This document shows, piece after piece, positions 13,324 to 35,019 of a DNA stretch of 64,000 nucleotides; position 1 is the stretch's first letter; the number at the start of each line of letters is the position of its first letter. The notes beneath the pieces are model-generated. The model saw only the letters and a list, made by a program, of their open reading frames with translations, had not been told where the DNA came from and ran no database searches. The translations under genes were made by a program, and so were the position numbers. Origin of the DNA: Phycisphaerales bacterium (GTDB lineage Bacteria > Planctomycetota > Phycisphaerae > Phycisphaerales > UBA1924); assembly GCA_051252395.1 (NCBI GenBank), contig JBPOFX010000001.1:557835-621834 (forward strand). The letters are read 5' to 3'.

Positions 13324-13325
13324 TC

Positions 13326-20035: not shown

Positions 20036-20321
20036 TCAGAGATCTGCATCGTCCCTAGACATCATTCCTGCATGAACTTGTGGTTTCAAAGCTCGCCTGT
20101 AGTTGTTGAAGCGTGCTGAATGAAGAGTTACGCTTCAGATTTGAATCAAGTGTACAACGATCAAGCACAGCATATATAAAGGACTCGCAAATGAATGCAA
20201 GTCCTTTAGTGTCTAGCAATGATGGTGGGCAAAACTAATTGGCTGACGCGAGCGAGTTTTCTATCCTGAGTTATAGATGATCACTTCAAAGTGATGGCTG
20301 AAAAGTCACAGCCGATTCTGA

Positions 20322-22949
20322 TCACGAACACCCTGATGAATACTGCGACAGAAACGCGGAGACATCAAAGAAATCAAAGAGACCATTGCCATCGAAGTCC
20401 GCGGATGGATCTTGATCCGCATACCCGGCAAGAAATGCCGAGATATCAAAGAAGTCCAGCAATCCGAACGGCATCGCTAAATCCGCATTGCAGGTGACCA
20501 CGAGCCGGAGCGAATCGGTATTGGACTCGACCCGCATGATCAACGGAGATACATCCGGGAGATCAATCGAGTCAAATGATTCATCGATGGTCCATTCGCC
20601 GGTATCGTCGCCGCCGAGGACGGTCATCGCGTCGCCAGCGGTTGGTTCATAGCTATCAGGAAGCGTGACCTGGAGTGTGCCTCCGAGTGTTGCGGTGCCA
20701 TGCCCGCGAATCGCTCCATCTGCTTCGTCAGTGTCCGGATCGAACTCGACATTGAGCGTGTGCTCCGCCCCAGTCACGATGTCGAAATCTTCCGCCGTGA
20801 CATCTACTCCCGAACGCAGGAAGAGATGGCCGGAATGGTCTACTTCTCGTAGTGTGATCGCTGATCCAATGAGTTCAATCTTTCCGGTTCCAATCGTCTC
20901 AATTGTTCCGCCATGGACGGTTGTCGGACTGTCACCAACCAACCGAATAGACCTTCCATTGGCTTCGAGGCGTCCCGCTGGATATGACCCGAATGGGTAC
21001 TGTTGTAAGTACAAGCCATCGAGTTCAATGGTTCCTCCGGATTCCGTACCGATCGTCCCATTGTTGCGTAGTTCTTGATATCCTACAATTCGCATCGGCC
21101 CTGAAGACCAGTCGGCCAATATTCTACCTCTGTTTGTAAACGGACGAGTGATCTCACCATAACCAGCCAATGTTCCGTTCGTACCAATTGAGATCCCATA
21201 TGTTGCGGGCAAAATCGATCCGCCAAAGAATCGTACTTCGCCATCACTGATGACCAATGATCCAGCAAAGTCACTTGTATTCGATGCGCGAAACACTGCG
21301 AACCCGGTGCCTCTCTTGATGATCCCGTGGCTACCAAACGGACTTTCAAGATGACCAAGGAATGTAAAGCTCTCATCCGTCTCACCGATCTTCAACGAAG
21401 TATGTGAAGGAATCTCTACCGTCCCCGACCCCTCGATGATCGGCACACTCAGATCCTCAAGGACTAAAAATGTCCCGAGCGAGTACACCTCGACCTTTGA
21501 GGCGCCTCCAACGGCTGAATCCGTAAGCCCGAGCGTGCCTTCCGTGATTACAATCGAGGTGTTAGTGAGATCGTTCGTGCCAACAAGATCTTGTCTACCA
21601 GTACCAGTCTTGGTGATCCTGTTGTTACTTTCAAGGCTGCCGCTGAAGACGCCATTTGCATTCCCATTCCCAAAGATGACCCTTGAATGCTCGCTCAGTT
21701 CAATGGCCCCCTCCCCTTCAATTGCTCCAATCGTATATGGGCTAGCACCACCGAACTCGACTCGATCTGATGGCTGATCAACACATAGGGTCATTGTTGA
21801 GTTGAGCCCAGAGAAGTTGAGGTGGATTTCTCCGCCGCTCGCCTCCATTTTACCTGAGAACTCATTGAAAATGTCGCTTGTGGTTGGGGACGACGCACTC
21901 AAAAATCCTGGCCCAACAACCCTCAGCACTCCATCACCACTCATGCTGGATGTGCTATAGAGCGAACCGTTTTCCGTCTCGAGGACATACCCATTGGTAT
22001 CGATACCCCCTCGAATATCTAGCCGTCTTGGGCTCGCGTCCGTAGCCAGCCGAAGCATAGTGAGCTCGCTCGATCTGACCAGTGACGAATCAATACTCCC
22101 AGTATTCGCCTCAAGCGTGCCCTCTGAGATGACCCATTCGTCTTGACTGTCAGACCCGATCCCTGTCACGCTGAGTGTGCCTTGCCCGATTTTTTGTGTC
22201 ACTCCGCCGGTTTCAAACTGAGTGAGCTTCACTGTGTCAGGCGTGTTTGTATCCAGAATGCCATTCCCAGGAGCAGAAACTGGGATCGAAACCGTCATCC
22301 CTTCATTAAACTGCAGGCTGCTAAAATTACCCATCTCCACTGAGTTCGAAACAGCACCAAGATGCCAACTCTTTGAGATCACCAACTTCGTACTGTCACC
22401 GAGTTCAATCCCACCGGTAATTGTATGCGATGGGCGAAAGCTTGGTCTTAACTCAACATCTCCATACGCAACTCGCAGGCCTGTCGTCCCTGCAAGCGGC
22501 GTCTCCAAGATTAATGGGTAGGAGCGTTGGCTATAGATATAACATTTTTCGCCGGGTAGGCTCGTCCTCAGACGCAAGGGTGATCCTGTAATCCGAACAA
22601 TTCCGGTAGCGGAGTTTAATCGGTGGATACTAGAAACGCTCAGGTAGTCAATCAGATTGTTATCTGCAACGCAATCGCCACTTTGGGCGAACTCGAACAC
22701 CAAATGATTTTTTGCCTCCGGGTGGTGATGTGGCCGGTTAAAGTCTTCCCAGTTCGAATAATCACTCATTGAACCGGTCTCAGGCGCACCATTGGGGTTC
22801 CACCACCGATAGTGAGCTTCAGGCTGAGCAGATGCCGAGGAGACGGCTAATCCTGTGAAGAGCATCAATGCAGCTTTCAGGAGTCGCGTAGAGCTTTGGC
22901 TCTTGGGCTCAGATTCTCGGTTTTCGAGTCGAATAGCATCATTTTGCAT
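20322..22949 (-). CDS. secreted beta-helix repeat protein (autotransporter-associated beta-strand repeats) with C-terminal GC-type dockerin-like module
   Basis: 875 aa. Signal peptide. Many G-T-L-x-L/GSxxxxG repeats. The C-terminus is ...DLAMPFGLLDFFDISAFLAGYADQDPSADFDGNGLFDFFDVSAFLSQYSSGCS, paralogous to the C-terminus of the 38009-41026 protein. Confidence 0.7.
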   Translation of the reverse strand: MQNDAIRLENRESEPKSQSSTRLLKAALMLFTGLAVSSASAQPEAHYRWWNPNGAPETGSMSDYSNWEDFNRPHHHPEAKNHLVFEFAQSGDCVADNNLIDYLSVSSIHRLNSATGIVRITGSPLRLRTSLPGEKCYIYSQRSYPLILETPLAGTTGLRVAYGDVELRPSFRPSHTITGGIELGDSTKLVISKSWHLGAVSNSVEMGNFSSLQFNEGMTVSIPVSAPGNGILDTNTPDTVKLTQFETGGVTQKIGQGTLSVTGIGSDSQDEWVISEGTLEANTGSIDSSLVRSSELTMLRLATDASPRRLDIRGGIDTNGYVLETENGSLYSTSSMSGDGVLRVVGPGFLSASSPTTSDIFNEFSGKMEASGGEIHLNFSGLNSTMTLCVDQPSDRVEFGGASPYTIGAIEGEGAIELSEHSRVIFGNGNANGVFSGSLESNNRITKTGTGRQDLVGTNDLTNTSIVITEGTLGLTDSAVGGASKVEVYSLGTFLVLEDLSVPIIEGSGTVEIPSHTSLKIGETDESFTFLGHLESPFGSHGIIKRGTGFAVFRASNTSDFAGSLVISDGEVRFFGGSILPATYGISIGTNGTLAGYGEITRPFTNRGRILADWSSGPMRIVGYQELRNNGTIGTESGGTIELDGLYLQQYPFGSYPAGRLEANGRSIRLVGDSPTTVHGGTIETIGTGKIELIGSAITLREVDHSGHLFLRSGVDVTAEDFDIVTGAEHTLNVEFDPDTDEADGAIRGHGTATLGGTLQVTLPDSYEPTAGDAMTVLGGDDTGEWTIDESFDSIDLPDVSPLIMRVESNTDSLRLVVTCNADLAMPFGLLDFFDISAFLAGYADQDPSADFDGNGLFDFFDVSAFLSQYSSGCS

Positions 22950-23204
22950 AGCAGTCTCCTTTTTCTGTTAATCAACTCCCTACTCCTATGAAGTATCACG
23001 AGATCGGGAGACACTTTGCGCAATCAAATTTGAAAAATATGGCCCGTGATCATCCAGACAGGATGAGGTCATCCGGCATATACCGGTTTCACTGCAAATT
23101 AAGTGCTCTGGAAGCGACTCGAGCTTGCTGCAGTCTTGGATAGGCTTTTTCGGAAACTTCGAGCACGAATACGCCCATAAGTTAAGCACTTCTTACTGAA
23201 ATGC

Positions 23205-26200
23205 TTATCTTGTGATTTGATCAAGAATATACGGATCCTTGATCTCGTTATCGCGTGCGAGCAACAAGACTTTCGAGAGAACCTCGGCAGACTTTGGATC
23301 ATCATCGGCAAAGGGAAGGAATATCCGGCCACGGTGCTGACTATGAACGGCCACGATGAACATTGCTTTTCCGGGAAGCACAGATGTAGAAGCACTCCCC
23401 AGATGTACCGAATAGGTCGCCCGGGTACCATCGATGATTGCATGATGATCCTTGACCTGTACATTATTCAATCCAAGAAGGATACATGTTTCTCTCAAGA
23501 GGGATGCTCGCATTTCAACAGTTGATGCTGATGCTTCAGGATCCACTCCTCCAGCGTGTGCAACACTGACGACAAGATCAAGATCACGCATTGCTTCACT
23601 GAATATACGATCAGGAATTTCACCCATCGCAATATGCTGCTCTTTATCCCCTTTGCGTTTAAATGCAACACCTTCGAGCGTTAAACCTTCGACTTCTGCA
23701 GGTGTGTAAAAATGCTCTTGGAACCAAAGCTCTGCAATTAACTTTTCATCATGAAATACCTTGCGAACCCCTTCTTCAGGAGAATGGATCCACTGACGCC
23801 CCTTGAGCAACGCGAGAGCTTGTCGAGGGTTCACTTGATGCCCGGCATATCGAGTTGTCATATCACAGTGATCAAGCTCAGACTTTGTCTTAGGATATAC
23901 CTCTCTAAAGACTTGTTTGAATGGCTGGATGCGCTCGGCTTCGAAGCAATCGCGTTGCCAATCATTCCAGCTTCCAGTGTTGAGTAAATCAATAGGGTGT
24001 GCAACCCGTAACTTGTCCGAGTTTCCTACCGGCTCTAGTCCTCCATCAATGCTTCGTAAGAGTTGTCCTGATTTTTCTGGATATCCGATGAGTTTGCCGT
24101 CGCCGATGAAAACTAACCGTTCAATCATCGGTCTGAGAATTGGATGGGCTGCGAACTCTTTGAGCTCGGCCCTGGAGAACTCATCACCTCTGCACATGGA
24201 TTCCTCAAGTGATATACGCATCCGGGATCGCTGCTTACGAAGTTCGGTGACTCGAGAACGCAAATGGGTGATCTGTTCATTCTTCCTGAGTTTGGCAGGT
24301 ACACTCTTGAGCTTCTTGCCCTTCTTTAGCACAGTTAACTCAGGCTCGCCCGATTCTGTGATTGAAAGAGAAACGCTTGTCTCTTCTACAGTGACAACCA
24401 CTGGGCCTTTAGCGAGATCAGCAACCGCTTGTGATTCCATAGCCCACTGCAGACGCCTTGGATCACGGAAACCTGCTGTTCTTGCGAGGTTCTGCATCGC
24501 AATTGCGACCGACTTCCCCTCGCTCGCTTGGCGTTGACTTCCAAACTGACGGCTTTGACGCTTGAACTCTTGGATTTGTGTATAGCGAGTAAGCAACTCA
24601 TTCTTCGCATCTGATTTTTTCTTCGGCAAAGGGATCAAACCGAGTGCGCGGACAGCGTCCTGATGCCGCTTGTCATGAATTCGTAAAAGGAGTTCATCCT
24701 CATCTAAGCGATGAAGCATTGCATCGGCAAAGAGCTGCGCTCGCTTATGCCCTCCACTGTTCGAGGCATACTTCGCAGGCTTTTGCAGCTTCGTCCATCC
24801 ATCTTCACCAACGAGTTCAATCACTTGAGTAAACCATCGGACATCTACAGCCCCTTCTTCCAGATCCTCGGAGTCGAGTTCGGTTCGCTCATTAATCTGA
24901 GCCGCCCAGATTTCTCGAAAGTCTTGATTCCGCCAATAATCATTCTTTTTCGTGTGTGCGTGAATCCACCACACGGCTTCCTCAAGGCCGTCTATCCCGA
25001 GGGCATACTCTGCATGCGATGCCCATTGAGGAGCAAACATGACGAGTTCAAGCAGCCGCGTTTCCTGAAGTCCTGATGATTGATAGAGCCGGGAGAATAA
25101 TTTTGGCGAATCGTCCTCTGTTGGATTTGTTACCGAGATGAGCCGGCTGTATGAATATGCTCTGGTAGGATCCCCCCACTGGTCTTGACGAACAATCTTG
25201 TCTTTCCCTAAGGCAACAGCGAAATCGAAGAATACTTTGGCGCCACCTGAGAAACGAAGCGATGCGGCCGGATGACTGGCTGGCATAAGCATTTCACCAC
25301 GCGTGAGTTCCAATGCGACAATGCGATTCCGCATTTCATCAACTGATCGAGTTAGCTCTGTTCTGTCGCCGATTGCCTTATGCGTTTTGAAACCTGTCAG
25401 TTCATTGATTGGGCCCAATATCACGGAGGGACCATATGCGTATCCATCGCGCTTTGGTTGTACTCGCGGATGGAGCATGAGCCAAACAAAGTCTCGATCA
25501 TTGACCAATCCATTGTCAAAAGCTGCAACGAACTCCTCTACCGTAGGGCCATAGCAATATGGTTCATCCCGATCCAACGCTAGTATCTTGAGCACGCCGA
25601 GTTGGATGATGTCATTCTTGGTGAACAAATACTTATGATCAGTGCGGATAGAAGCTTGGACATGTGCCCGTTTTGATACTAAGCCTGTCTCTCGATACCC
25701 TCGATCCTCTCGAAGATCTGCTTTTTCTTGGTCACTCATTGCGTCACGAGCGAGTGAGTCTTCGAAGTATTGAACAAGCATTTTTCCAGCGTTCTGTGGT
25801 TCTGAAAGGAGCATCAGCCAGGAAACCAATCTCTCAAATCCGTATCGCAACTGCCAAACATATCTTTCTTGGAATGGCTTTGGAAGGAGCTTCATGTACG
25901 AATCACCACGATGGATCCATGCCATAGCACGAACCAGCTCTAGTCCATCCGAATCACGCGTTTCCTTTGACCGATTGTCAAGCCAATCCAGCCAAACATC
26001 GCATAACGGAAGACGCTCGGCCGCTTCCTTACGGTGATTCTCACTTGCCTTCGGCTTTGGAAACTTCCATCCGGCAGATGAAAGTAGTTCTACGCTCTTC
26101 CCCTGATCCCCTAGCTCGCCCTCTTCAAGTTTAACTTCTGTTTCACCATGAAGAATAAACAAATCAGCGATTTCTTTGAGACATTTCTTCGTGGCAGAAG

Positions 26201-28142
26201 TTTCGATTCGAACACCTACAAACTTCGGTTTGATCGTTGGGCATCGCGACCCCTTTGGGACAAGCCCAAGGCAATCATCAAGGGTAACTACTTCAGTAGC
26301 TTCACCAAGAATCCGACCCAGTGTCTCTTTCTGATCTTTGTCAGCGAACACGTCTTCATATGATCGAACTAGTGCCTGCACTTTCTTAGCGGAGCGATTG
26401 TTTTCGACTAAATGTGATGCGAGTTCAAGCCCAGCTGCCCGTTTTTTGGCGTTCTTGTCCCCGATCAATATGCCAATGATTTCAACTACCTTGACATCTT
26501 TGAGCTTCGACAGTCGACTAATTGCACCTTGACGAAGACTCGCGGCTGTCCGGTGCAAGTTGGACATCAGCAACTCAACTTCGTCTTCCTCGACGGGGAG
26601 CTTATCGATCGCCAAGAATGCAGCCTTCTGAACATCTTGACGCGGATCGCAGGTGAGTTGTATAACCGCTGAGCGGGCTTGAGCTGTGAGCTTACTTGGT
26701 TTTCGTTTGACCCTCTTCCCATTGACCCAGCTGTGCCCAGTCTCAGCTAGATGATTAATAAGATTGACAACATCCCATGAATCAAGTGCGTGCATATATG
26801 GGGTCATGAGATCTGGCGAGCCAGCTGACATTGCCTTGAGAGCCGAAGCGACCACTCGTCGATCGTACTCATACTTTGCCCAAGGCCAAACGATGGGGTC
26901 AAGTTTCTTCTTGCGTTTGGGCATTGAGTTGAAGAGAGTACCCAAAGATTGAAACAACTCAGGAGTTACTGAAGTAAACTGGATACGAGCAATGAATGAC
27001 AACATGGCCATGAGCACGCGCTCATCCTTTTCCTCGTGAGATCGTAATCGTGTCGCTATTCTTTCAACTGACTCTGGTAGTAGAGCGAGGTGTTCGAGAA
27101 TTTTTACGGCAACGAATCTGCGTTCTGCACATTGATGAACCAACGCCACCTCAGCCTGTTTCACAGCTTCTTGCGCATTCAGATACGCGCTGACCCATAG
27201 CGCAAGATAAGCCTCGGCTGGCTTAGCGGATTCGATCGCCTGCAATCTCGCTTTTTCGTCATCTAAATACAAGCAGAGTGAATCAATACCATCGTGAACA
27301 ACTTTACTGCTTCCACTGGCCCATTGCATACCGAGCCACGCATCGAATGCACGAACAGTAGCACTGAAACGCGCTAAATCATGTTCACGAATGATGCCCA
27401 GCATATATCGAAATGCTTCTGGATTGGCCCCGTCGATTGCCTCCAGTATTGACTGGCGTAAGCCCTCCTGTCGCTGAGCAGCGAGCAATAATTTAGCGAT
27501 GACTTCCCAATCATCACGCTGATTTGAGTTGAGCATCGCAGAGATGACATGATGCCCCATATCACCAATTTCATGATCACCATTGATCGAGTCCACAAGA
27601 ACGCTTCGTACACGATCAGCATCATCACCGCCTTGTCGTAGGACAGTGGCGAGCAACCAACCGATATGTGCCTTGGGCTCATTGGAGTACATCTTGAGAT
27701 GCTGCGACCAAGCCGCGACCCATTCAATGTCTTCCTTGTAGCCGGCGAGCGAGTCACACAGTGAGAGGAAGAAACGAGCCCGATTGGCATCGACACTCTC
27801 AGCTCTATCTGGTGCACGAAAAGGAAATCGTATGTAGCCATGTTGATATGGGCGATCGCCTGCAGTTTGCCACGCTTGCTCAATATGCAGTGCCATCTTC
27901 GGGAACAATGAGTCCCAGAGCTTCAGCCTTCGTTTCTCATCGATCTTACTGAAGTACTTTATCGTTCGCTGCTGTCGGTCATCATTCTCGATATGACGGT
28001 AGCCATCTCTTTTATGGTCAACGATCGATCTCAACTCATCTCGTGCCTTGCCGGGTGTTCGAATCAGTTTCTTTATTTGAGCGTCGATCCATTTGACATC
28101 ACGAGCGTCTTCGGCTTGTTGCTGTAGATTTTCTCGATCCAC
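23205..28142 (-). CDS. giant (1645 aa) alpha-helical repeat protein of unknown function. The C-terminal region possibly belongs to the DUF4132 (MolR/YehI-like) family.
   Basis: Uninterrupted 4.9-kb ORF. It starts 17 nt after the stop of the 142-aa ORF and lies in the same orientation downstream of rtcA. It is helical and HEAT/ARM-like over most of its length. The C-terminal third contains W-x-x-W...QPFKQVFREVY and ...YSVHLGSASTSV... blocks that I recall as DUF4132-like (from memory, unverified). Confidence 0.6.
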   Translation of the reverse strand: MDRENLQQQAEDARDVKWIDAQIKKLIRTPGKARDELRSIVDHKRDGYRHIENDDRQQRTIKYFSKIDEKRRLKLWDSLFPKMALHIEQAWQTAGDRPYQHGYIRFPFRAPDRAESVDANRARFFLSLCDSLAGYKEDIEWVAAWSQHLKMYSNEPKAHIGWLLATVLRQGGDDADRVRSVLVDSINGDHEIGDMGHHVISAMLNSNQRDDWEVIAKLLLAAQRQEGLRQSILEAIDGANPEAFRYMLGIIREHDLARFSATVRAFDAWLGMQWASGSSKVVHDGIDSLCLYLDDEKARLQAIESAKPAEAYLALWVSAYLNAQEAVKQAEVALVHQCAERRFVAVKILEHLALLPESVERIATRLRSHEEKDERVLMAMLSFIARIQFTSVTPELFQSLGTLFNSMPKRKKKLDPIVWPWAKYEYDRRVVASALKAMSAGSPDLMTPYMHALDSWDVVNLINHLAETGHSWVNGKRVKRKPSKLTAQARSAVIQLTCDPRQDVQKAAFLAIDKLPVEEDEVELLMSNLHRTAASLRQGAISRLSKLKDVKVVEIIGILIGDKNAKKRAAGLELASHLVENNRSAKKVQALVRSYEDVFADKDQKETLGRILGEATEVVTLDDCLGLVPKGSRCPTIKPKFVGVRIETSATKKCLKEIADLFILHGETEVKLEEGELGDQGKSVELLSSAGWKFPKPKASENHRKEAAERLPLCDVWLDWLDNRSKETRDSDGLELVRAMAWIHRGDSYMKLLPKPFQERYVWQLRYGFERLVSWLMLLSEPQNAGKMLVQYFEDSLARDAMSDQEKADLREDRGYRETGLVSKRAHVQASIRTDHKYLFTKNDIIQLGVLKILALDRDEPYCYGPTVEEFVAAFDNGLVNDRDFVWLMLHPRVQPKRDGYAYGPSVILGPINELTGFKTHKAIGDRTELTRSVDEMRNRIVALELTRGEMLMPASHPAASLRFSGGAKVFFDFAVALGKDKIVRQDQWGDPTRAYSYSRLISVTNPTEDDSPKLFSRLYQSSGLQETRLLELVMFAPQWASHAEYALGIDGLEEAVWWIHAHTKKNDYWRNQDFREIWAAQINERTELDSEDLEEGAVDVRWFTQVIELVGEDGWTKLQKPAKYASNSGGHKRAQLFADAMLHRLDEDELLLRIHDKRHQDAVRALGLIPLPKKKSDAKNELLTRYTQIQEFKRQSRQFGSQRQASEGKSVAIAMQNLARTAGFRDPRRLQWAMESQAVADLAKGPVVVTVEETSVSLSITESGEPELTVLKKGKKLKSVPAKLRKNEQITHLRSRVTELRKQRSRMRISLEESMCRGDEFSRAELKEFAAHPILRPMIERLVFIGDGKLIGYPEKSGQLLRSIDGGLEPVGNSDKLRVAHPIDLLNTGSWNDWQRDCFEAERIQPFKQVFREVYPKTKSELDHCDMTTRYAGHQVNPRQALALLKGRQWIHSPEEGVRKVFHDEKLIAELWFQEHFYTPAEVEGLTLEGVAFKRKGDKEQHIAMGEIPDRIFSEAMRDLDLVVSVAHAGGVDPEASASTVEMRASLLRETCILLGLNNVQVKDHHAIIDGTRATYSVHLGSASTSVLPGKAMFIVAVHSQHRGRIFLPFADDDPKSAEVLSKVLLLARDNEIKDPYILDQITR

Positions 28143-28159
28143 TGTATACTCCGAGTTGT

Positions 28160-28588
28160 TTATGCCCCAGCCAAAAAGACAAGGCGGATAAATGTAATAT
28201 GACTCGTTGGACTTAGCTGGACAATCTCATCAAGACATTTCCGTTCGACTTCATCGATAACTACAAGGTATAGCCCATCAATAAACCCCATCAGGGCAGC
28301 CCCAACAGCCTCTTCGACATCCACAGAATGGGGAATGCTCTTGTTTGCAGGATCGATTTTCCCTAAAACTATCCCACGGTCTATTTGCGACTTGCTCAGT
28401 ACTCGATCAAACTGCAACTGCTCCTGCCGACGATCAAACTTGGCAACTTCGCTATGTACGATGTGCTCAATGATTTTACGGAGTGTTAAATCATCCCCAT
28501 CACCAATCTCAGATGGAGGGGGCACACTGAAATCCGCGAGCAGCGGCTTCCGTTTACCAAGCAATCTCGTTGAAACAACAATGGACAA
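28160..28588 (-). CDS. hypothetical protein (142 aa), probably co-transcribed with the giant ORF
   Basis: The ORF lies 145 nt downstream of rtcA and 17 nt upstream of the 1645-aa ORF. No motif recognised. Confidence 0.45.
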   Translation of the reverse strand: MSIVVSTRLLGKRKPLLADFSVPPPSEIGDGDDLTLRKIIEHIVHSEVAKFDRRQEQLQFDRVLSKSQIDRGIVLGKIDPANKSIPHSVDVEEAVGAALMGFIDGLYLVVIDEVERKCLDEIVQLSPTSHITFIRLVFLAGA

Positions 28589-28733
28589 GAAAACAACTCC
28601 CTATAGAACGACAAAACCGATCTATGGTATGTTATGGCATTTTCTTTAGGATTGTGGCGCACGATAGAGTCAATAGTGATTATCATAGCATCAGAACACA
28701 GTTCTACTGCGACTCAAAATTTCCAATACTTGC

Positions 28734-29750
28734 TCAAACAATCCGGACTGTATTCAATCCCCGATCGAGTTCTTTCGATTGAATCTTGATCTGCAAAAAC
28801 TGCTCGATCACGAATGCATTTGTCTCCGAATGAGGAGTCAGAGCACATGTCCTGAACTCCCCCACTCCTGCCATCGCAAACGGGAGCATAAGTTGATCAG
28901 CGAGATGACTCCATACTGGTACACCCTTGTGCAAGTAATGATGGACTTGTGCCGCCGTTGATTTGGCCACACGCTCAGCGGATCGTCCGCGCTCGCCGAA
29001 TCCAGTAAAGACCTCGGTTACATGCTCACTCTGTATCTCGATGCTGAGCACATTCCCAGGGCCTACTGAATCAGCGAGTTGCTCGATGCAAAGCGAGTCC
29101 TGCTCCCATTCAAGATTCTTAGCGATCACATCCAACTCTCGTTTTGCAATGTCAGTGGATAGTCCAGCGACTGTAGCAGTCGCTGTCTGTGCGACAATAT
29201 CACCACGCTCCACGATTGACACTGGCGCAAGTTTCTTTACCGGATCAATTTCAACCCGGATCCGTCCTCCTCCAGCGGGGTAAAAACCATGTCGCTCGAT
29301 CTCAACACGCACACGCGGCCCCATTCGTTCGATGATTGGCAGGAACGACTTGCAAAGAAAATCGACACTGGGCGCGTGGGTATTGTGCGTCCCGCCCTCG
29401 ATCATCACCACCGATGGCGCAGAAGCGATCATCAACGCGGGAAGAATCGTTTGAAGCACAAGTGTTGTGCTCCCAGCCGAGCCGATGGCGAAAGAATACT
29501 CTCCGCTCTGGACTGGTCCTGGTCGAAACTCTACCTTGGACGATCCGAGTTCTGCTCCCGTGACCTTTGCACCACATACGGCGGCTGCTGCTTTGACCGC
29601 GGTGAGGTGTTGGCGCAAAAGCCCCGGCTTCTGACGGCCGGAGCGAATTTTCTCGATGCAAAAAGGGCGAGCAGTCACCATCGAGAGTGCCAAAGCACTT
29701 CGAAGGATCTGCCCGCCGCCTTCGCCTGTTGAGCCATCAATATGAATCAT
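28734..29750 (-). CDS. rtcA: RNA 3'-terminal phosphate cyclase
   Basis: MIHIDGSTGEGGGQILRSALALSM...GLLRQHLTAVKAA...FAIGSAGSTTLVLQTILPAL...HGFYPAGGG aligns residue-for-residue with E. coli RtcA as I recall it. Confidence 0.9.
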   Translation of the reverse strand: MIHIDGSTGEGGGQILRSALALSMVTARPFCIEKIRSGRQKPGLLRQHLTAVKAAAAVCGAKVTGAELGSSKVEFRPGPVQSGEYSFAIGSAGSTTLVLQTILPALMIASAPSVVMIEGGTHNTHAPSVDFLCKSFLPIIERMGPRVRVEIERHGFYPAGGGRIRVEIDPVKKLAPVSIVERGDIVAQTATATVAGLSTDIAKRELDVIAKNLEWEQDSLCIEQLADSVGPGNVLSIEIQSEHVTEVFTGFGERGRSAERVAKSTAAQVHHYLHKGVPVWSHLADQLMLPFAMAGVGEFRTCALTPHSETNAFVIEQFLQIKIQSKELDRGLNTVRIV

Positions 29751-29766
29751 GAATGTAACCTCTCAA

Positions 29767-31281
29767 CTAGTCGTCGGCTTTGTCGCCGTCCTTAATAACA
29801 AACTTTGCGTCCAAGCGGGCGACCTCGCTTGCGAGGCCTGCAGTTTTGACTGACTTCAGTACTTCCTCGAAGTCTTTGTATGCCGCAGGTGCTTCGTCGA
29901 TCGGGTAGTTTCGACAGTTCGAGAGGATATCTCGGTCTGCGAATGATTGATCGACGACCTTCTGGTCCAAGTCTCGCTTCGCGCCGGTTCGTGACATTGC
30001 TCGTCCTGCACCGTGGTTGACGCTGTAGCACGAGAGCGCAGCGCCGGCGTCGGCGACCATGACTGCGGATCCGTCCTGTGGATTCCCTGGGAGCAGGATC
30101 GGGTGTCCGGTCTCTGCGAAAGGGGTGTCCTTGAGGCCGTGGTGACCTGCAGGGAAGGCGCGGGTGGCGCCCTTGCGGTGGACCCACTCCATGCGATCAT
30201 TGACAACTTCTTGGCGTGCGATGTTGTGGCTGATGAAGTACACCAGTCGGCCATCGATGCCTGGGAAGATCTCTTGGAACGCGTCGAGTACGAGCGCGTT
30301 AATCAACAGGTGATTGACGGTCGCGAAGTTTGCTCCCAGTGACATATCGTCGATATAAGAATCTGCTTCGGGAGTTCCGAGCGGTGCGCAGACGAGGTTT
30401 CGGTCACCTCCAGGGAGCGGGATATCCCACTTCGCAAAGTGATCCTGCAGAGTACGAAACTGTCCTGATGCGAGATCGTGACCGAATCCGCGTGATCCGC
30501 AGTGCGAGAGGAAAGCGACGCCGCCGTCGCGGAGTCCGAAGACTTCTGCGACTTTCTTGCTGCGGTCTGACTCTCCAACACGGACGACTTCGCATTCACC
30601 GAAGTGATTTCCTCCGCCGTAGGAACCGAGCTGGCGCATCTTTCCTGCGAAACGCTCTCCGAAGCGGAGACGCTTTCCGGTATTGAACTGCGGATCGTTG
30701 CAGAGGATATCGAGACGAGCGCGGAGCGCATCGTGGGAGCCGTCGTGTCCGACATGTGTGCTGTCTTCGCAGCGATCTGCCCACTCTGGTGGGATCCCGA
30801 GTTGGTTGCATACATCCTCCGATGCGCCCTCGGCGACCAGCTGGCGTCCGAGTTCCTCGGAGACAGGACGAGCCTTCTTGACATGGCGCTGACCCCGACC
30901 GGTTCCCGTTGGGGTCCGCTCGCAGATCGCTTCGATGAGTGCGCGGCGAGTCTTGCGATCCACAATCGCGTCCTCGTCGATGTCGACTGCGAGGAGGCTC
31001 ATGGAACACTTAATGTCCACGCCGACCGGTCCTGGGTAGATGTGCGAAGGGGAAGACATGACGCAACCGACGGGGGCGCCGTATCCGACATGAGCGTCTG
31101 GATTGAGGACAACCTGTGAGACGCCTGGCGCCATTGCGGAGTTGATCGCTTGCTGCAAGCAGGGCGCATCGAATGTCTTTCGGATTGATTCGGTTCCGAT
31201 CACAGTGACCGGCTTCTGGTTGTTTGGAAGGGGAAGGATCGCGGTTGCTTCCCCGGTTTCGATCAGCGTTGATTCAGACAT
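29767..31281 (-). CDS. rtcB: RNA-splicing ligase RtcB (3'-phosphate/5'-OH RNA ligase)
   Basis: NPDAHVGYGAPVGCV, the GGNHFGE-type metal site and the C-terminal SVNHGAGRAMSRTGAK...PAAYKD blocks match the RtcB family. It lies 16 nt upstream of rtcA. Confidence 0.9.
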   Translation of the reverse strand: MSESTLIETGEATAILPLPNNQKPVTVIGTESIRKTFDAPCLQQAINSAMAPGVSQVVLNPDAHVGYGAPVGCVMSSPSHIYPGPVGVDIKCSMSLLAVDIDEDAIVDRKTRRALIEAICERTPTGTGRGQRHVKKARPVSEELGRQLVAEGASEDVCNQLGIPPEWADRCEDSTHVGHDGSHDALRARLDILCNDPQFNTGKRLRFGERFAGKMRQLGSYGGGNHFGECEVVRVGESDRSKKVAEVFGLRDGGVAFLSHCGSRGFGHDLASGQFRTLQDHFAKWDIPLPGGDRNLVCAPLGTPEADSYIDDMSLGANFATVNHLLINALVLDAFQEIFPGIDGRLVYFISHNIARQEVVNDRMEWVHRKGATRAFPAGHHGLKDTPFAETGHPILLPGNPQDGSAVMVADAGAALSCYSVNHGAGRAMSRTGAKRDLDQKVVDQSFADRDILSNCRNYPIDEAPAAYKDFEEVLKSVKTAGLASEVARLDAKFVIKDGDKADD

Positions 31282-31436: not shown

Positions 31437-32621
31437 TTATTGCACTGCCTCACGCTTGATGAGGCTGCTGATCTGCTCGCTCAGATCTCCTTGTCCGAGC
31501 ACGAAGGTTGCTTCGGTGCCTCGCAGGATTTCCTGCAGGGCTTCAAGTTCCTTCATGCGTGCGAGCACGGGGTTCTGTTCGAGGAGCTTTGCGGTGTTTG
31601 CCTGGCTCCGTGCGGCGGCGGTTTCCTCTCGGCGACGGATCAGGTTTGCTTCCGCTTGCTTCTCGGCGACAATGACCTGGTTGAGGATCACCTTCATGTC
31701 GCCGGGAAGGATGATGTCTCGGAGTCCGACACCCATGACTGAAACCCCGAACTGGGCTGCGCGGTTTGCGAGCCTGTTTTTGATTTCGCCTCCGACTTCG
31801 TCCTTGTCTGCGAGCAGTTTCTCGAGCGAGCGGCCGCCGATGGCAGAGCGGAGTTCGAGCTGTGCTTCTCGGTACAAAGCTTGCGACCAGTCAACGACTT
31901 CGGTGACGGCCTTGACGGGATCGGTGACGCGATGGGTCACGACGAGGTTGACCCTGAGGGTTACCTTGTCGGCGGTCATGATCTCTTGGCCTTGGATGTC
32001 TTCGACCTGCTCGCGCAGATCGATCGACTTCCAGGTGAAGCTTGGGCCTCCGCGCCAGAAGGTGTAGCGTCCTGCTCCGAGTTGGTCGACGAGCTTGCCG
32101 TCCATGAACAGCATGACCTGTTCGTGGGACTCAACTCGAACGCCGGTGAAGAAGCGGATACCTCCTGGGAAGTTCTCGATGGTTTCGAGCTTTGGGTGCT
32201 CGAACCGACCTGAGCTGACATCAAAGCGTTCGACGACGATCTCTGCATTCTGAGTCCAGAATGCGTGGACCCCTGCTGAGAGGATCGAACCGAGTCGTCC
32301 GTCGATCCAGACCAGCGCACGCTCTGTATCCTTGAGGTCAACGACGCACAGACGCGACGCGATGCGGGGATCGCGGACGAGTGCATTGAGATCGTTGTGC
32401 TCGAAACGCGGGGAGAGGGTGTTGATCGTCTCGAACCGATCGCACTTGGCGCCGAACGGCATGGACCATGCGTTGTACTTCCCCTGATCGAGGACTCGGT
32501 GGAGTTCGTTGTGACGGAACCACAGTCCGAGTTCATGCTTACGGATTCGGATGGTCTTTCTCATGGCTTGGCTCCTTTCGTTGGGCGTTTGTGCATGAGG
32601 CACTTGGTGCAGTTCAAACAA
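31437..32621 (-). CDS. SPFH / band-7 (stomatin-prohibitin-flotillin-HflKC) domain protein with ~170-aa N-terminal extension
   Basis: The C-terminal ~230 aa show the SPFH signature (TADKVTLRVNLVVTHRVTDPVKAV...ELRSAIGGRSLEKLLADKDEV...GVGLRDIILPGDMKVILNQVIVAEKQAEANLIRRREETAAA). It is the first ORF of the sigma54-driven rtc transcription unit. Confidence 0.8.
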   Translation of the reverse strand: MFELHQVPHAQTPNERSQAMRKTIRIRKHELGLWFRHNELHRVLDQGKYNAWSMPFGAKCDRFETINTLSPRFEHNDLNALVRDPRIASRLCVVDLKDTERALVWIDGRLGSILSAGVHAFWTQNAEIVVERFDVSSGRFEHPKLETIENFPGGIRFFTGVRVESHEQVMLFMDGKLVDQLGAGRYTFWRGGPSFTWKSIDLREQVEDIQGQEIMTADKVTLRVNLVVTHRVTDPVKAVTEVVDWSQALYREAQLELRSAIGGRSLEKLLADKDEVGGEIKNRLANRAAQFGVSVMGVGLRDIILPGDMKVILNQVIVAEKQAEANLIRRREETAAARSQANTAKLLEQNPVLARMKELEALQEILRGTEATFVLGQGDLSEQISSLIKREAVQ

Positions 32622-32949: not shown

Positions 32950-33205
32950 TGGAGATATGGGGATTCGAACCCCAGGGCGTAGCCCTTGACCTGTGATGCG
33001 TGCGGGACTCGAACCCGCGACCGGCGAGTTTGGTACTCGCTGCTCTAACCAGCTGAGCTAGCGCAACACGCTATGTTCATCGGGAGAACCCATGCCGCGG
33101 GACCCATGGACTTCAGAGAAGTTTGAGCCGCTGGACGATGGAACAAAGCGAATGGATGCAGAGGGAATCGAACCCTCAGCCGGGGGGAGATGCAATCCCT
33201 CCCCC
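32950..33205 (-). ncRNA. cluster of three tRNA-like modules in the rtc operon leader. One is a near-complete tRNA-like element (32994-33067) with anticodon-loop TACCAAA. One is a 3' tRNA fragment with encoded CCA (32950-32991). One is a 10-bp GC hairpin plus T-arm module (33131-33205).
   Basis: Minus strand. (i) A D-arm TAGCTCAGCTGGTTAGAGC, an anticodon arm GCGAG-TACCAAA-CTCGC (A at position 33, not the universal U) and a T-arm GCGGG-TTCGAGT-CCCGC. The acceptor pairs at only 5 of 7 positions. (ii) ...AGGGCTACGCCCT-GGGG-TTCGAAT-CCCC-ATATCTCCA. (iii) CCGGGGGGAG-GGATTGCAT-CTCCCCCCGG followed by GAGGG-TTCGATT-CCCTC-TGCATCCA. Confidence 0.55.
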
Positions 33206-33286: not shown

Positions 33287-33302
33287 TGCAGTTGGTGTGC
33301 CA
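33287..33302 (-). promoter_or_regulatory. sigma54 (RpoN) -24/-12 promoter reading leftward into the tRNA-like leader, SPFH gene, rtcB and rtcA
   Basis: The minus strand reads TGGCAC-ACCAA-CTGCA, with GG and GC exactly 10 nt apart and one mismatch to TGGCAC-N5-TTGCW. It lies 113 bp from the divergent rtcR start codon, the canonical rtcR / rtcBA arrangement. Confidence 0.6.
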
Positions 33303-33414: not shown

Positions 33415-35019
33415 ATGGATACACAGAAACGCAAACCAACTGTCGTGATCGGGCTTCTCGGGACGACGCTGGATATCGGCAAGGGGACGAAGCGATGGGA
33501 ACGCTGGAGGCCGACGGTTTCGCTTTGTCAGCATGAGGACTTTGTGGTCGATCGGCTCGAGCTCATCCATAGCAAACGCGCGACGGCGCTTGCAGAGTTG
33601 GTCGAAGCGGATATTCGATCGGTTTCGCCTGAGACGACGGTGGTTCGGCACAGGGTTGAGATGCGTGACGCGTGGGACTTCCAGGAGGTCTACACGAAGC
33701 TCCATGACTTTGCACGCGCATATGCGTTTGACACGGATACCGAAGACTATCTCGTGCACATCACGACTGGGACGCATGTCGCGCAGATCTGCAACTTCTT
33801 GCTGACTGAAACAAGCTACTTTCCTGCGAAGCTGATTCAGACCTCTCCTCCTCGTGGGAAGAAGGAGGGAGCGGGACGGATTCAGATTATTGATCTGGAT
33901 CTCTCGAAGTATGATCGGCTCGCATCAAGATTTGAGCGTGAGTACGAAGACGCGGTCGAATCTCTCAAGGATGGCATCGAGACCAGAAACAAAGCATTCA
34001 ACTCACTCATTGAACGCATCGAGCAAGTCGCCGTACGAACTACAGACCCAATCCTGCTCACCGGCCCCACGGGGGCAGGAAAATCTCGACTCGCAAGTCG
34101 AATCTTTGATCTTCGCAAGCACAGGCACCTAGTGACCGGCCATCTCGTCGAAGTCAACTGCGCCACCATTCGTGGCGATTCGGCAATGTCCACGCTCTTT
34201 GGACACAAAAAGGGCGCGTTCACCGGCGCTGTGACTGATCGCCCTGGACTCCTTCGTAGGGCGCATGGCGGAACGCTCTTCTTAGATGAAATCGGCGAGC
34301 TGGGTATCGATGAACAGGCCATGCTCCTGCGGGCGATTGAAGAGAAGCGATTCACCCCTCTCGGCTCGGATGTCGAAGTATCAAGCGATTTTCAGCTCAT
34401 AGCGGGAACAAACCGAAACCTAATCGATCATGTTCGCCAAGGCTTATTCCGCGACGATCTACTCGCACGGATCAATCTTTGGACATTCGAGCTCCCGGCA
34501 TTACGCGATCGCCCCGAGGATATCGAGCCCAATATCGAGTTTGAACTTGAACGACTCTCCCAAAGCCGAAATCAACGAGCGAGATTCAGCAAAGAAGCCC
34601 ATCGCCGCTTTCTTGATTTTGCAACCTCACCAGAAGCAACCTGGCCCGGCAACTTTCGGGATTTGAACGCCGCCCTTACCCGTATGTCCACACTCGCGCT
34701 TGGCGGACGCATCACTGTTGAGACTGTTGAGGAAGAAACCAGTCGGCTTCTCACATTATGGGAGAGCCCTACCCGTACGAGCCATGACAGACTACTCTCG
34801 GAGCTACTCACCCAAGAACAAATCTCCGAGATTGACCTCTTTGATCAAGCTCAGCTTACTTTTGTATTCGATGTGTGTCGAAATTCAAACTCACTATCTG
34901 ATGCTGGGCGAAAGCTATTCGCCGCTTCTCGCGTCCGACGGTCATCCACAAACGATTCTGATCGTGTACGGAAATACCTTGCCAAGTTTGGATTGGACTG
35001 GGACCGGGTCACTTCATAG
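33415..35019 (+). CDS. rtcR: sigma54-dependent transcriptional activator RtcR (N-terminal CARF domain, AAA+ sigma54-activator domain, C-terminal HTH)
   Basis: 534 aa, collinear and about half identical by eye with E. coli RtcR. Matching blocks are KWRPT, VSPET, YLVHITTGTHVAQIC, LTGPTGAGKS, GAFTGA (GAFTGA loop), FLDEIGELG and KYLAKFGL. Confidence 0.9.
   Translation: MDTQKRKPTVVIGLLGTTLDIGKGTKRWERWRPTVSLCQHEDFVVDRLELIHSKRATALAELVEADIRSVSPETTVVRHRVEMRDAWDFQEVYTKLHDFARAYAFDTDTEDYLVHITTGTHVAQICNFLLTETSYFPAKLIQTSPPRGKKEGAGRIQIIDLDLSKYDRLASRFEREYEDAVESLKDGIETRNKAFNSLIERIEQVAVRTTDPILLTGPTGAGKSRLASRIFDLRKHRHLVTGHLVEVNCATIRGDSAMSTLFGHKKGAFTGAVTDRPGLLRRAHGGTLFLDEIGELGIDEQAMLLRAIEEKRFTPLGSDVEVSSDFQLIAGTNRNLIDHVRQGLFRDDLLARINLWTFELPALRDRPEDIEPNIEFELERLSQSRNQRARFSKEAHRRFLDFATSPEATWPGNFRDLNAALTRMSTLALGGRITVETVEEETSRLLTLWESPTRTSHDRLLSELLTQEQISEIDLFDQAQLTFVFDVCRNSNSLSDAGRKLFAASRVRRSSTNDSDRVRKYLAKFGLDWDRVTS

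What the first reader, a model, noticed from the sequence alone, without database searches (positions are those of the whole stretch)
23205..28588. Giant 1645-aa helical-repeat protein plus a 142-aa partner appended to the rtcBA operon
Downstream of rtcA, in the same orientation, sits a 142-aa ORF and then, 17 nt later, a 4.9-kb ORF with no stop. The intergenic gaps are 145 nt and 17 nt.

Canonical rtc loci are rtcR/rtcBA only, occasionally with rsr/Y-RNA. A >180-kDa helical protein in this position is unexplained. Its C-terminal third contains blocks (WNDWQRDCFEAERIQPFKQVFREVY; TRATYSVHLGSASTSV) that I recall as resembling the DUF4132 domain of the MolR/YehI proteins. That family is large, of unknown function, and suspected to act in conflict or stress systems.

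Linkage to the Rtc locus and its CARF regulator would tie this family to RNA-damage responses for the first time.
Basis: partly seen in the sequence, partly recalled or inferred. Interest (0 to 1): 0.7.

Follow-up and report, generated by a model that had tools for sequence, protein, structure and literature searches.

The report
Ubiquitin-like/giant pair on RNA-repair operon
Behind the RNA-repair genes rtcB and rtcA sits a widespread, uncharacterised two-gene unit: a small ubiquitin-like protein and a 1645-residue helical giant. The same pair turns up next to several different RNA-repair systems in other bacteria and is switched on by radiation-type damage in Deinococcus, so it is probably an unrecognised part of nucleic-acid damage responses.

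Summary
On the minus strand, rtcA is followed after 145 nt by a 142-aa ORF, then after 17 nt by a 1645-aa ORF.

- **Giant:** Pfam DUF5724 + DUF4132 + DUF7737. It is only remotely related to E. coli YehI/MolR.
- **Partner:** no Pfam family. It models as a ubiquitin-like beta-grasp, and family members end exactly in Gly-Gly or Gly-Ala.
- **Distribution:** the pair is a strictly conserved two-gene module in at least ten phyla.
- **Linkage:** the exact rtcBA-pair order occurs only in one narrow Phycisphaerales clade, and about 90% of loci have no repair neighbour. Among neighbours, though, only RNA-repair-related genes recur. These are RtcB/RtcA/RtcR, Pnkp-Hen1, RlaP-Pnkp, an SPFH protein and tRNA arrays, in at least six separate giant lineages and in different gene orders.
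- **Published support:** the Deinococcus radiodurans orthologues are DRA0165/DRA0166, a DdrO/IrrE damage-induced operon.

Best reading: a nucleic-acid-damage response module that this clade has attached to an RtcR/sigma-54 operon. Its biochemistry is unknown, and the giant's C-terminal module has no solved structural relative. Co-transcription with rtcBA is not shown.

The parts
23205..28142 (-). Giant protein, 1645 aa: N-terminal HEAT-type helical solenoid plus a conserved C-terminal alpha/beta module
   Evidence: ORF. Pfam DUF5724 at residues 58-1235 (E 8e-190), DUF4132 at 1275-1451 (2e-44), DUF7737 at 1542-1643 (4e-33). HEAT/alphaRep matches in the PDB profile search. 884 homologues.
24438..27971 (-). 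DUF5724 region of the giant (helical repeats)
23790..24320 (-). DUF4132 domain of the giant, containing invariant C1399 and the QPFKQxFRE motif
23214..23519 (-). DUF7737 domain of the giant, with invariant H1580, H1600, Q1602, R1604, R1606, D1613, D1615
28160..28588 (-). 142-aa ubiquitin-like (beta-grasp) partner ending in ...FLAGA
28589..28733 (-). 145-nt rtcA-to-partner spacer, with no terminator and no stable structure
28734..29750 (-). rtcA (RNA 3'-terminal phosphate cyclase)
29767..31281 (-). rtcB (RNA ligase), 504 aa
31437..32621 (-). SPFH/Band-7 protein, first protein-coding gene of the operon
   Evidence: The same SPFH cluster recurs near the pair in L067, L148 and L150.
32993..33067 (-). 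tRNA-like element in the operon leader, called tRNA-Trp(CCA) but with A at position 33
33288..33302 (-). Sigma-54-type -24/-12 promoter element TGGCACaccaaCTGC
   Evidence: It is conserved at the same place in L003, L004, L005, L009 and L090.
33415..35019 (+). rtcR (CARF-type sensor domain plus sigma-54 activator), divergent from the operon
   Evidence: NCBIfam RNA_repair_RtcR, 814 bits.

Best explanation
The 142-aa and 1645-aa genes form one autonomous, ancient two-gene module. It pairs a ubiquitin-like beta-grasp protein, whose C-terminus is a free Gly-Gly or Gly-Ala, with its dedicated giant partner. The giant has a roughly 1000-residue HEAT-type solenoid, which would serve as a docking platform. 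It also has a highly conserved C-terminal DUF4132/DUF7737 module, which would be the catalytic or ligand-binding part.

The module belongs to nucleic-acid-damage responses. In this Phycisphaerales clade it has been attached to the 3' end of an RtcR/sigma-54-controlled operon. The order is promoter, tRNA-like RNA, SPFH, rtcB, rtcA, ubiquitin-like gene, giant. On this reading it would be made together with the RNA healing and sealing enzymes when RtcR senses damaged tRNA.

**Shown**
- Domain content.
- Strict pairing of the two genes across phyla.
- Recurrent neighbourhood with RNA-repair genes.
- Damage induction of the Deinococcus orthologues (published).

**Inferred**
- Co-transcription with rtcBA.
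- Physical complex between the two proteins.
- Action on damaged RNA or the translation apparatus.

**Speculative (about 0.25)**
- The giant itself activates or receives the C-terminal glycine of the small protein, as adenylation, thiocarboxylation or conjugation. The reason to suspect this is that no E1, E2 or JAB gene travels with the pair.
For: **The pair is a unit**
- A small-protein homologue lies immediately upstream of the giant in nearly all of 166 loci from Planctomycetota, Verrucomicrobiota, Gemmatimonadota, Cyanobacteria, Chloroflexota, Armatimonadota, Deinococcota, Actinomycetota, Desulfobacterota and Bacteroidota.

**The small protein is ubiquitin-like**
- GG or GA at the exact C-terminus in 123 of 139 distinct sequences.
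- Nearly all of the top 150 representatives are 135-150 aa with the match running to the last residue, and none carries a fused domain.

**RNA-repair neighbours in different orders and lineages**
- rtcB-rtcA-pair: window, L003/L009, L004/L005, L090, L088.
- pair-RlaP-Pnkp with a 31-nt gap: L022.
- RlaP-pair with a 16-nt gap: L141, L147.
- pair-Hen1-x-Pnkp: L038, L084.
- Pnkp-Hen1 divergent from the pair: L125.
- pair-tRNA array-rtcB: L135.
- rtcR convergent on the giant: L027, L007, and a remnant in L084.

**Unbiased neighbour clustering**
- After the pair itself, the top recurrent neighbours are SPFH, RtcR, RtcB and RtcA. RlaP and Pnkp each recur in 4 loci.
- The linked loci are scattered over at least six clades of a giant-protein tree.

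**Operon features in the window**
- Conserved sigma-54 promoter.
- No terminator or stable structure in the 145-nt spacer.

**Deinococcus orthologues**
- D. radiodurans DRA0165/DRA0166 are orthologues.
- The published RDRM operator lies exactly upstream. An RDRM-like palindrome is also present in D. ficus.
- The paper shows DdrO/IrrE-dependent induction (PMC8533742).

**Other**
- Some family members carry a fused WGR domain.
Against: - About 90% of loci show the pair alone in unrelated contexts, including other Phycisphaerales.
- The exact rtc linkage is restricted to genomes whose giants are 82-86% identical. It could therefore be inherited synteny.
- The 145-nt AT-rich spacer could hold its own promoter. 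It contains a conserved TTGACT and a TGcTATGAT-like element. L007, from the same clade, has the pair without rtcBA upstream.
- In Deinococcus the inducing stress is DNA damage or desiccation, not demonstrably RNA damage.
- The window protein ends in Gly-Ala, not Gly-Gly.
- The expected background rate of repair loci is my estimate. It was not computed on genomes.
Confidence: 0.55

Rival explanations
1. Coincidental or merely inherited juxtaposition. The pair is a self-contained operon with an unrelated cellular role. In one clade it happens to sit after rtcA and is transcribed from its own promoter.
For: - Most loci lack repair neighbours.
- The exact gene order occurs only in close relatives.
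- The spacer is 145 nt and AT-rich with promoter-like motifs.
- L007 has a different upstream context.
Against: - Three different repair systems (Rtc, Pnkp-Hen1, RlaP-Pnkp) lie directly beside the pair in different orders. They occur in at least six giant lineages and two or more phyla, some with 16-31 nt operonic spacing.
- No other functional class recurs among neighbours.
Confidence: 0.22
2. The small protein is a MoaD/ThiS/TtuB-like sulfur carrier, and the giant is a scaffold for thiolation of tRNA or of a cofactor. Repair of damaged tRNA would then be coupled to re-modification.
For: - MoaD and ThiS are among the top fold matches, and the family has a GG terminus.
- From my own knowledge, sulfur-carrier ubiquitin-like proteins are used for tRNA 2-thiolation (TtuB, Urm1, SAMP2).
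- E. coli molR was isolated as a molybdate-utilisation locus (cited in PMC8533742).
- Thiamine and molybdate genes lie near the pair in D. radiodurans and L034.
Against: - No E1-like (ThiF/MoeB), cysteine desulfurase or thiolase gene recurs next to the pair.
- The thi and mod neighbours occur in only two loci and are not adjacent operon partners.
- The small protein has a roughly 50-residue helical insert that MoaD and ThiS lack.
Confidence: 0.1
3. The pair is a conflict or immunity system: a sensor scaffold plus a ubiquitin-like modifier, in the manner of bacterial ubiquitin-like defence operons. It would damage or tag nucleic acids or invader proteins, with the RNA-repair genes serving as a reset.
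For: - In L141 the RlaP-pair lies beside GAP1-N2, DO-GTPase2 and an integrase-like gene.
- Some members carry fused WGR domains.
- From my own knowledge, RNA-repair systems are often linked to conflict systems.
Against: - No PADLOC hit and no phage copies.
- The only plasmid hits are on non-mobilizable large replicons.
- The pair is usually single-copy in housekeeping-type contexts.
- No nuclease, toxin, E1, E2 or JAB domain was detected.
Confidence: 0.08

Closest known systems
Deinococcus radiodurans drA0165-drA0166 operon (radiation/desiccation response regulon; PMC8533742)
   Same: - It is the orthologous pair. The small protein is 134 aa and ends in LAGG (hhalign probability 99.7%).
- The giant is 1626 aa with DUF5724, DUF4132 and DUF7737, and is 50% identical over the C-terminal 616 residues.
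- The two genes are 2 nt apart.
- The pair is stress-induced.
   Different: - It is controlled by the DdrO/IrrE system through an RDRM operator, not by RtcR/sigma-54.
- No rtc genes are nearby. An Endo_dU gene lies downstream instead.
- The paper assigns no function and does not note the ubiquitin-like nature of DRA0165.
E. coli YehI / MolR (YehH) / YehF locus
   Same: It shares the DUF4132 domain. It is a large helical protein of unknown function, and molR is said to be in the LexA regulon (PMC8533742).
   Different: - No significant full-length similarity.
- YehI lacks DUF5724 and DUF7737 (not tested here by Pfam; inferred from the absence of any alignment).
- The E. coli locus has a WGR protein, MoxR, vWA and SWIM neighbours, and a YehK protein unrelated to the ubiquitin-like partner.
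Canonical RtcR-regulated rtcBA operon (E. coli; Salmonella rsr-yrlBA-rtcBA)
   Same: - Divergent rtcR with a CARF-type sensor domain plus a sigma-54 activator domain.
- A -24/-12 promoter, then rtcB and rtcA.
- A structured, tRNA-like RNA in the leader. From my own knowledge this recalls the tRNA-like module of the Salmonella YrlA RNA.
   Different: - No Rsr/Ro.
- It has an SPFH gene first and a tRNA-like element (tRNA arrays in relatives).
- Two extra cistrons, the ubiquitin-like gene and the giant, sit at the 3' end.
Anabaena TrcR translational-stress regulon (PMC8421152, PMC10272220)
   Same: It co-regulates rtcB, a tRNA array, hen1-pnkP and a slipin (SPFH) gene. This is the same set of functions that clusters physically around the pair here.
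   Different: - The genes are dispersed and controlled by a repressor, not gathered in one sigma-54 operon.
- Neither paper mentions a DUF5724/DUF4132 gene in the passages I searched.
Ubiquitin-like sulfur carriers and modifiers (MoaD, ThiS, TtuB, Urm1, SAMP)
   Same: Predicted beta-grasp fold, a flexible C-terminal tail and a terminal Gly-Gly in most family members.
   Different: - No sequence-level membership.
- A large helical insert.
- No linked E1-like enzyme.
- The obligate partner is a 1650-aa HEAT protein.
Pnkp-Hen1 and RlaP-associated RNA repair cassettes (RlaP: PMC12776372)
   Same: In other genomes these are the direct operonic neighbours of the pair.
   Different: They are absent from this window. 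Here the partner system is RtcBA.

Membership tests
Pfam DUF5724-type giant proteins (DUF5724 + DUF4132 + DUF7737) | All three Pfam domains above gathering score, in that order | tested here: met
   634, 152 and 114 bits against cut-offs of 25, 27 and 27.
Pfam DUF5724-type giant proteins (DUF5724 + DUF4132 + DUF7737) | Full-length collinear similarity to proteins of about 1650 aa | tested here: met
   39-86% identity over 95-100% of the query for most of the 120 listed homologues. Alignment A1 has many invariant columns.
Pfam DUF5724-type giant proteins (DUF5724 + DUF4132 + DUF7737) | A partner gene of about 140 aa immediately upstream | tested here: met
   17-nt gap in the window. The partner is found upstream in nearly all loci that have upstream sequence.
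MolR/YehI proteins of E. coli | DUF4132 domain | tested here: met
   E 2e-44.
MolR/YehI proteins of E. coli | Significant overall sequence similarity to YehI | tested here: not met
   Best BLASTP segment has E 0.16 over 31 residues.
MolR/YehI proteins of E. coli | WGR domain in the protein or in an adjacent gene, and MoxR/vWA/SWIM neighbours | tested here: not met
   No WGR hit in the window protein. The window neighbours are rtcA and a beta-helix protein. The E. coli locus is shown.
Ubiquitin-like beta-grasp proteins with an activatable C-terminus (ThiS/MoaD/ubiquitin type) | Beta-grasp fold | tested here: met
Ubiquitin-like beta-grasp proteins with an activatable C-terminus (ThiS/MoaD/ubiquitin type) | Gly-Gly at the exact C-terminus | tested here: inconclusive
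   Across the family, 76 of 139 end in GG and 47 in GA, and the penultimate residue is Gly in 125 of 139. The window protein itself ends in Gly-Ala.
Ubiquitin-like beta-grasp proteins with an activatable C-terminus (ThiS/MoaD/ubiquitin type) | Sequence match to ThiS, MoaD or ubiquitin profiles | tested here: not met
   No Pfam or NCBIfam hit even at E 5. The only recurrent weak hit is DUF3509, in 10 of 55 members.
Ubiquitin-like beta-grasp proteins with an activatable C-terminus (ThiS/MoaD/ubiquitin type) | Linked E1-like adenylating enzyme, E2 or JAB peptidase | tested here: not met
   No such cluster appears among recurrent neighbours in 166 loci. Trans-acting enzymes are not excluded.
Ubiquitin-like beta-grasp proteins with an activatable C-terminus (ThiS/MoaD/ubiquitin type) | C-terminal adenylate, thiocarboxylate or conjugate formed in vivo | not testable with these tools
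   Needs mass spectrometry.
RtcR-regulated rtc RNA-repair operon | rtcB, rtcA and a divergent rtcR | tested here: met
RtcR-regulated rtc RNA-repair operon | Sigma-54 -24/-12 promoter facing the operon | tested here: met
   TGGCAC-N5-CTGC at 33288..33302(-). An exact TGGCAC-N5-YTGCA sits at the same position in five related loci.
RtcR-regulated rtc RNA-repair operon | The pair is transcribed from that promoter | not testable with these tools
   Only indirect evidence: same strand, no terminator, and spacer z-score +1.05.
Known anti-phage defence systems (PADLOC) | Match to any defence-system protein model | tested here: not met
   No hits for the giant, the partner or SPFH.

The most novel reading that the evidence does not exclude
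The pair is a previously unrecognised kind of ubiquitin-like system that works without E1, E2 or JAB enzymes. The giant's DUF4132/DUF7737 module, which has no solved structural relative, would activate or accept the Gly-Gly/Gly-Ala C-terminus of the small protein. It would use it to mark, protect or re-modify damaged tRNA, rRNA or ribosomes. This would be a third step alongside RNA end-healing and sealing, and the module would have been recruited independently under RtcR, DdrO/IrrE and Pnkp-Hen1/RlaP cassettes.
Probability: 0.25. Interest if true: 0.88.

Novelty: new variant of a known kind. Interest (0 to 1): 0.68.

Why it matters
DUF4132 and DUF5724 proteins are widespread. At least 492 GTDB species genomes carry this giant, and the partner forms 1758 clusters at 50% identity. 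No function is known for either.

This work contributes four things:
- The giant always comes with a ubiquitin-like Gly-Gly/Gly-Ala protein.
- Its only recurrent neighbours are RNA-repair enzymes, an SPFH protein and tRNA arrays.
- The damage-induced Deinococcus genes DRA0165/DRA0166 are the same pair.
- Together these turn an anonymous DUF into a testable hypothesis in tractable organisms: D. radiodurans, Bacteroides finegoldii and Acaryochloris marina.

If the pair does act on damaged RNA or ribosomes, it adds a new component to bacterial RNA-repair pathways and possibly a new ubiquitin-like chemistry. It also enlarges the known cargo of RtcR regulons.

Tried and rejected
- **PDB profile search.** It returned only HEAT/alphaRep repeats.
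- **PADLOC.** No hits.
- **YehK as a possible counterpart of the small protein.** Rejected (hhalign probability 1%).
- **HEPN-like R-x5-H in TRATYSVH.** Rejected because the Arg is not conserved.
- **Rfam search for Y RNA or other families in the operon.** Only a tRNA match.
- **Word-index search from the Trueperaceae small protein, to reach Deinococcus.** No named Deinococcus hit. The link was made through plasmid tblastn instead.
- **Literature.** No paper mentions DUF5724, and none combines DUF4132 with RtcB. Burroughs & Aravind 2016 (NAR 44:8525), the most likely place for a prior mention, is not held, so priority could not be checked.
- **Pfam census of all immediate neighbours.** Prepared but not run, because the crude ORF calls were noisy and exceeded the size limit.
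- **Promoter scan of the rtcA-partner spacer.** Inconclusive.
- **RDRM search upstream of the Trueperaceae pair (L032).** No convincing motif by eye.
Full report
**1. Observation**

The described ORFs exist, on the minus strand.
- The giant is at 23205..28142: 1645 aa, GTG start, GGAG seven bases upstream.
- The small ORF is at 28160..28588: 142 aa, TTG start, GGAG upstream.
- rtcA is at 28734..29750 and rtcB at 29767..31281.
- The gaps are 145 nt and 17 nt, and both quoted peptides are present.

Pfam and NCBIfam confirm RtcA, RtcB and a divergent RtcR at 33415..35019(+).
- an SPFH/Band-7 gene (31437..32621);
- a tRNA-like element (32993..33067);
- a sigma-54-type -24/-12 element, TGGCACaccaaCTGC, at 33288..33302(-). 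It is conserved at the same position in the five closest related loci.

**2. What the two proteins are**

*The giant.* It matches DUF5724 (residues 58-1235, E 8e-190), DUF4132 (1275-1451, 2e-44) and DUF7737 (1542-1643, 4e-33).
- The recalled DUF4132 resemblance is therefore correct for the first quoted block. The second block lies in DUF7737.
- The N-terminal two thirds contain HEAT-type repeats.
- The last roughly 600 residues are the most conserved part, with many invariant polar residues. These include C1399, H1529, H1580, H1600, R1604, R1606, D1613 and D1615.
- An AF2 model of residues 1030-1645 is confident (pLDDT 84). It has no significant solved relative beyond helical repeats.
- Similarity to E. 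coli YehI is not significant by BLASTP. The window protein has no WGR domain, although some relatives carry one fused at the C-terminus.

*The small protein.* It has no Pfam, NCBIfam or PADLOC hit.
- Its AF2 model (pLDDT 79.6) is a beta-grasp with a helical insert.
- Gly141 is invariant.
- Among 139 distinct homologues taken from the loci, 76 end in Gly-Gly and 47 in Gly-Ala. Thirteen more carry a two- or three-residue extension.
- In an exhaustive profile search there are 1758 cluster representatives at E<=1e-3. Nearly all of the top 150 are 135-150 aa, with the match running to the last residue, and none shows a domain fusion.

This is the signature of a ubiquitin-like protein whose C-terminal carboxylate matters.

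**3. The pair is one module**

I scanned one genome per GTDB species (at least 492 relatives, best 80 kept) and JGI metagenomes (at least 411 relatives, best 80 kept).
- tblastn finds a small-protein homologue directly upstream of the giant in nearly every locus that has upstream sequence.
- The phyla are Planctomycetota, Verrucomicrobiota, Gemmatimonadota, Cyanobacteria, Chloroflexota, Armatimonadota, Deinococcota, Actinomycetota and Desulfobacterota. Large replicons add Bacteroidota.
- No phage carries it.

**4. Is the rtc linkage real?**

The exact order rtcR <> SPFH-rtcB-rtcA-small-giant occurs only in genomes whose giants are 82-86% identical to this one: L003/L009, L004/L005, L090 and L088. 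More distant Phycisphaerales have the pair alone in unrelated contexts. Taken alone, that would look like inherited synteny.

Other RNA-repair genes, however, sit beside the pair elsewhere, in different arrangements.

| Locus | Source | Arrangement |
|---|---|---|
| L022 | Limisphaerales | small-giant-RlaP-Pnkp, 31-nt gap and then an overlap |
| L141, L147 | metagenome | RlaP-small-giant, 16-nt gap |
| L038 | Phycisphaerales | giant-Hen1-x-Pnkp |
| L084 | Phycisphaerales | giant-Hen1-x-Pnkp, with a 41-aa rtcR C-terminal remnant between giant and hen1 |
| L125 | metagenome | Pnkp-Hen1 divergent from small-giant |
| L135 | metagenome | giant, six tRNA genes, rtcB |
| L148 | metagenome | RtcB-TatD upstream; four tRNA genes and SPFH downstream |
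| L150 | metagenome | tRNA genes and SPFH downstream |
| L067 | Pirellulaceae | tRNA-Trp and SPFH upstream |
| L027, L007 | Phycisphaerae; unclassified MAG (NORP141) | rtcR convergent on the giant |
| L103 | metagenome | intein-containing RtcB 7 kb away |
| L034 | Pirellulaceae | RlaP 3.7 kb away |

An unbiased all-against-all clustering of every ORF in the 166 loci and the window gave this ranking after the pair itself: SPFH (9 loci), RtcR (7), RtcB (7) and RtcA (6). RlaP and Pnkp each recurred in 4 loci. A few unannotated clusters also reached 4-6 loci. In the earlier 86-locus run, the comparably sized clusters I could identify were generic kinase and ABC ATPase families.

On a neighbour-joining tree of giant C-termini, the linked loci fall in at least six separate clades. 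One clade (L022, L135, L141, L147, L034) is linked throughout, but with changing partners.

After collapsing giants that are at least 80% identical, there are 137 groups. By my count, about 11 of these contain a repair enzyme or RtcR, and 7 of them have it directly adjacent.

My estimate of the chance expectation is below one. It assumes one or two such loci per 4-9 Mb genome and 2.7 Mb of flanks examined. This is an inference from general knowledge, not a computed background.

**5. Independent experimental anchor**

tblastn against plasmid records hit Deinococcus replicons at 49-50% identity over the whole C-terminal query.
- In D. radiodurans a 134-aa gene ending in LAGG (hhalign probability 99.7% against the small-protein profile) lies 2 nt upstream of a 1626-aa DUF5724/DUF4132/DUF7737 gene.
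- The RDRM operator published for DRA0165, GGTTATGCTATTTACATAAC, lies exactly 63-82 nt upstream of that small gene. The pair is therefore DRA0165/DRA0166.
- PMC8533742 reports the following. The operon is strongly up-regulated on DdrO depletion. DRA0166 protein rises after mitomycin C in an IrrE-dependent way.
- D. ficus has an RDRM-like palindrome at the same place.

Separately, work on Anabaena shows that rtcB, a tRNA array, hen1-pnkP and a slipin (SPFH) gene are induced together under translational stress (PMC8421152, PMC10272220). That is the same functional set found physically around the pair here.

**6. Most likely mechanism**

*Shown:* a conserved pair made of a ubiquitin-like protein and a giant; recurrent physical linkage to RNA healing and sealing enzymes, SPFH and tRNA arrays; damage-inducible expression of the Deinococcus orthologues.

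*Inferred:*
- In this genome RtcR activates the sigma-54 promoter at 33288..33302. From established knowledge, RtcR is triggered by tRNA fragments with 2',3'-cyclic phosphate ends (Hughes et al. 2020, as cited).
- The transcript would run through the tRNA-like RNA, SPFH, rtcB and rtcA into the pair. The 145-nt spacer has no terminator and no stable structure (z +1.05).
- The two proteins act together. The solenoid would dock a large ligand, and the C-terminal module would handle the Gly tail.

*Speculative:* the giant itself activates or receives the small protein's C-terminus.

I put 0.55 on the general statement that this is a damage-response module functionally coupled to RNA repair. I put about 0.25 on the specific ubiquitin-like chemistry.

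**7. Rivals**

- Coincidental or inherited synteny with an independent promoter: 0.22.
- A MoaD/ThiS/TtuB-like sulfur-carrier role: 0.10.
- A conflict or defence system: 0.08.

Evidence for and against each is given in the structured fields.

**8. Comparison and novelty**

The giant is a bona fide member of the catalogued but uncharacterised DUF5724 family. It should not be filed with E. coli MolR/YehI beyond the shared DUF4132 domain.

The locus is a new variant of an RtcR operon, with SPFH, a tRNA-like leader and the pair as extra cargo.

Three points do not appear in the literature I could search: the ubiquitin-like nature of the partner, its strict coupling to the giant, and the recurrent RNA-repair neighbourhood. 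I could not read Burroughs & Aravind 2016, so priority is uncertain.

**9. Verdict**

The finding is a good lead rather than an explained system. Interest is 0.68.

Noticed in passing
window 32950-33210 (minus strand); L003 4044-4117; L004 5316-5389: The leader between the sigma-54 promoter and SPFH holds a tRNA-like element, called tRNA-Trp(CCA) at only 45 bits. Its anticodon loop is UACCAAA (A at position 33) and its acceptor stem is irregular. Two extra T-arm-like hairpins flank it (GGGTTCGATTCCC and GGGGTTCGAATCCCC). In L003 and L004 the orthologous element has nearly identical acceptor, D and T arms but a different anticodon arm, reading Ile(GAU). The anticodon arm has therefore been swapped between close relatives.
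   Followed up: partly
L003 6133-6472; L004 7003-7263; L090 6561-6821: In close relatives, three or four tRNA genes (Pro, Leu, Arg, Leu) lie between SPFH and rtcB inside the operon. The window lacks them (155-nt gap). The 'Leu' genes are 73-76 nt long and so lack the long variable arm of bacterial tRNA-Leu.
   Followed up: partly
L135 7566-8492: An array of six tRNA genes lies between the giant and rtcB. All encode CCA. All have unusual T-loops (for example GGTGCAATTCC, with G where the universal U55 should be) and D-loops that lack the GG pair. Their Rfam scores are low (36-60 bits).
   Followed up: partly
L148 15522-16095 and L150 9005-9735: Four-gene tRNA arrays start about 750 nt downstream of the giant and are followed by an SPFH gene of the same cluster as the window's. 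This suggests a mobile 'tRNA array plus SPFH (plus RtcB)' module.
   Followed up: partly
L084 14965-15087 and 15254-22847: A 41-aa remnant of the rtcR C-terminus lies antisense between the giant and hen1. hen1 is split into two ORFs. A 1234-aa ORF with no Pfam hit lies between hen1 and pnkp.
   Followed up: partly
L141 4411-8686: Directly upstream of RlaP-small-giant lie an integrase-like gene, a DO-GTPase2-like gene (weak hit) and a GAP1-N2 gene. This is a GTPase-type conflict system.
   Followed up: no
L008 9938-13885: This genome comes from the same species group as L004/L090 and has identical downstream genes. Its giant starts only at about residue 352, and the small gene and the whole rtc locus are absent upstream. 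This is either a deletion or an assembly join.
   Followed up: no
L168 9881-10465 (D. radiodurans): An Endo_dU (DUF99) gene lies 63 nt downstream of DRA0166 on the same strand. It is not conserved in D. ficus or D. psychrotolerans.
   Followed up: partly
window 20001-30000: G+C dips to 0.48-0.51 across the giant, the small gene, rtcA and the downstream 875-aa gene. Most of the window is at 0.52-0.59. This is compatible with later acquisition.
   Followed up: no
window 20322-22949 (minus strand): An 875-aa secreted-looking repeat protein with a C-terminal DFDGNG...DFFDVSAF dockerin/EF-hand-like motif lies 255 nt downstream of the giant. The downstream neighbour differs in each relative (a transposase in L003, CT_C_D genes in L004).
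   Followed up: no
L103 479-2326: An intein-containing RtcB lies 7 kb upstream of the pair.
   Followed up: no
L167 (E. coli K-12) 4301-13912: The E. coli WGR/DUF4132 genes yehF-yehH-yehI lie immediately downstream of metG (methionyl-tRNA synthetase). This may be coincidence.
   Followed up: no
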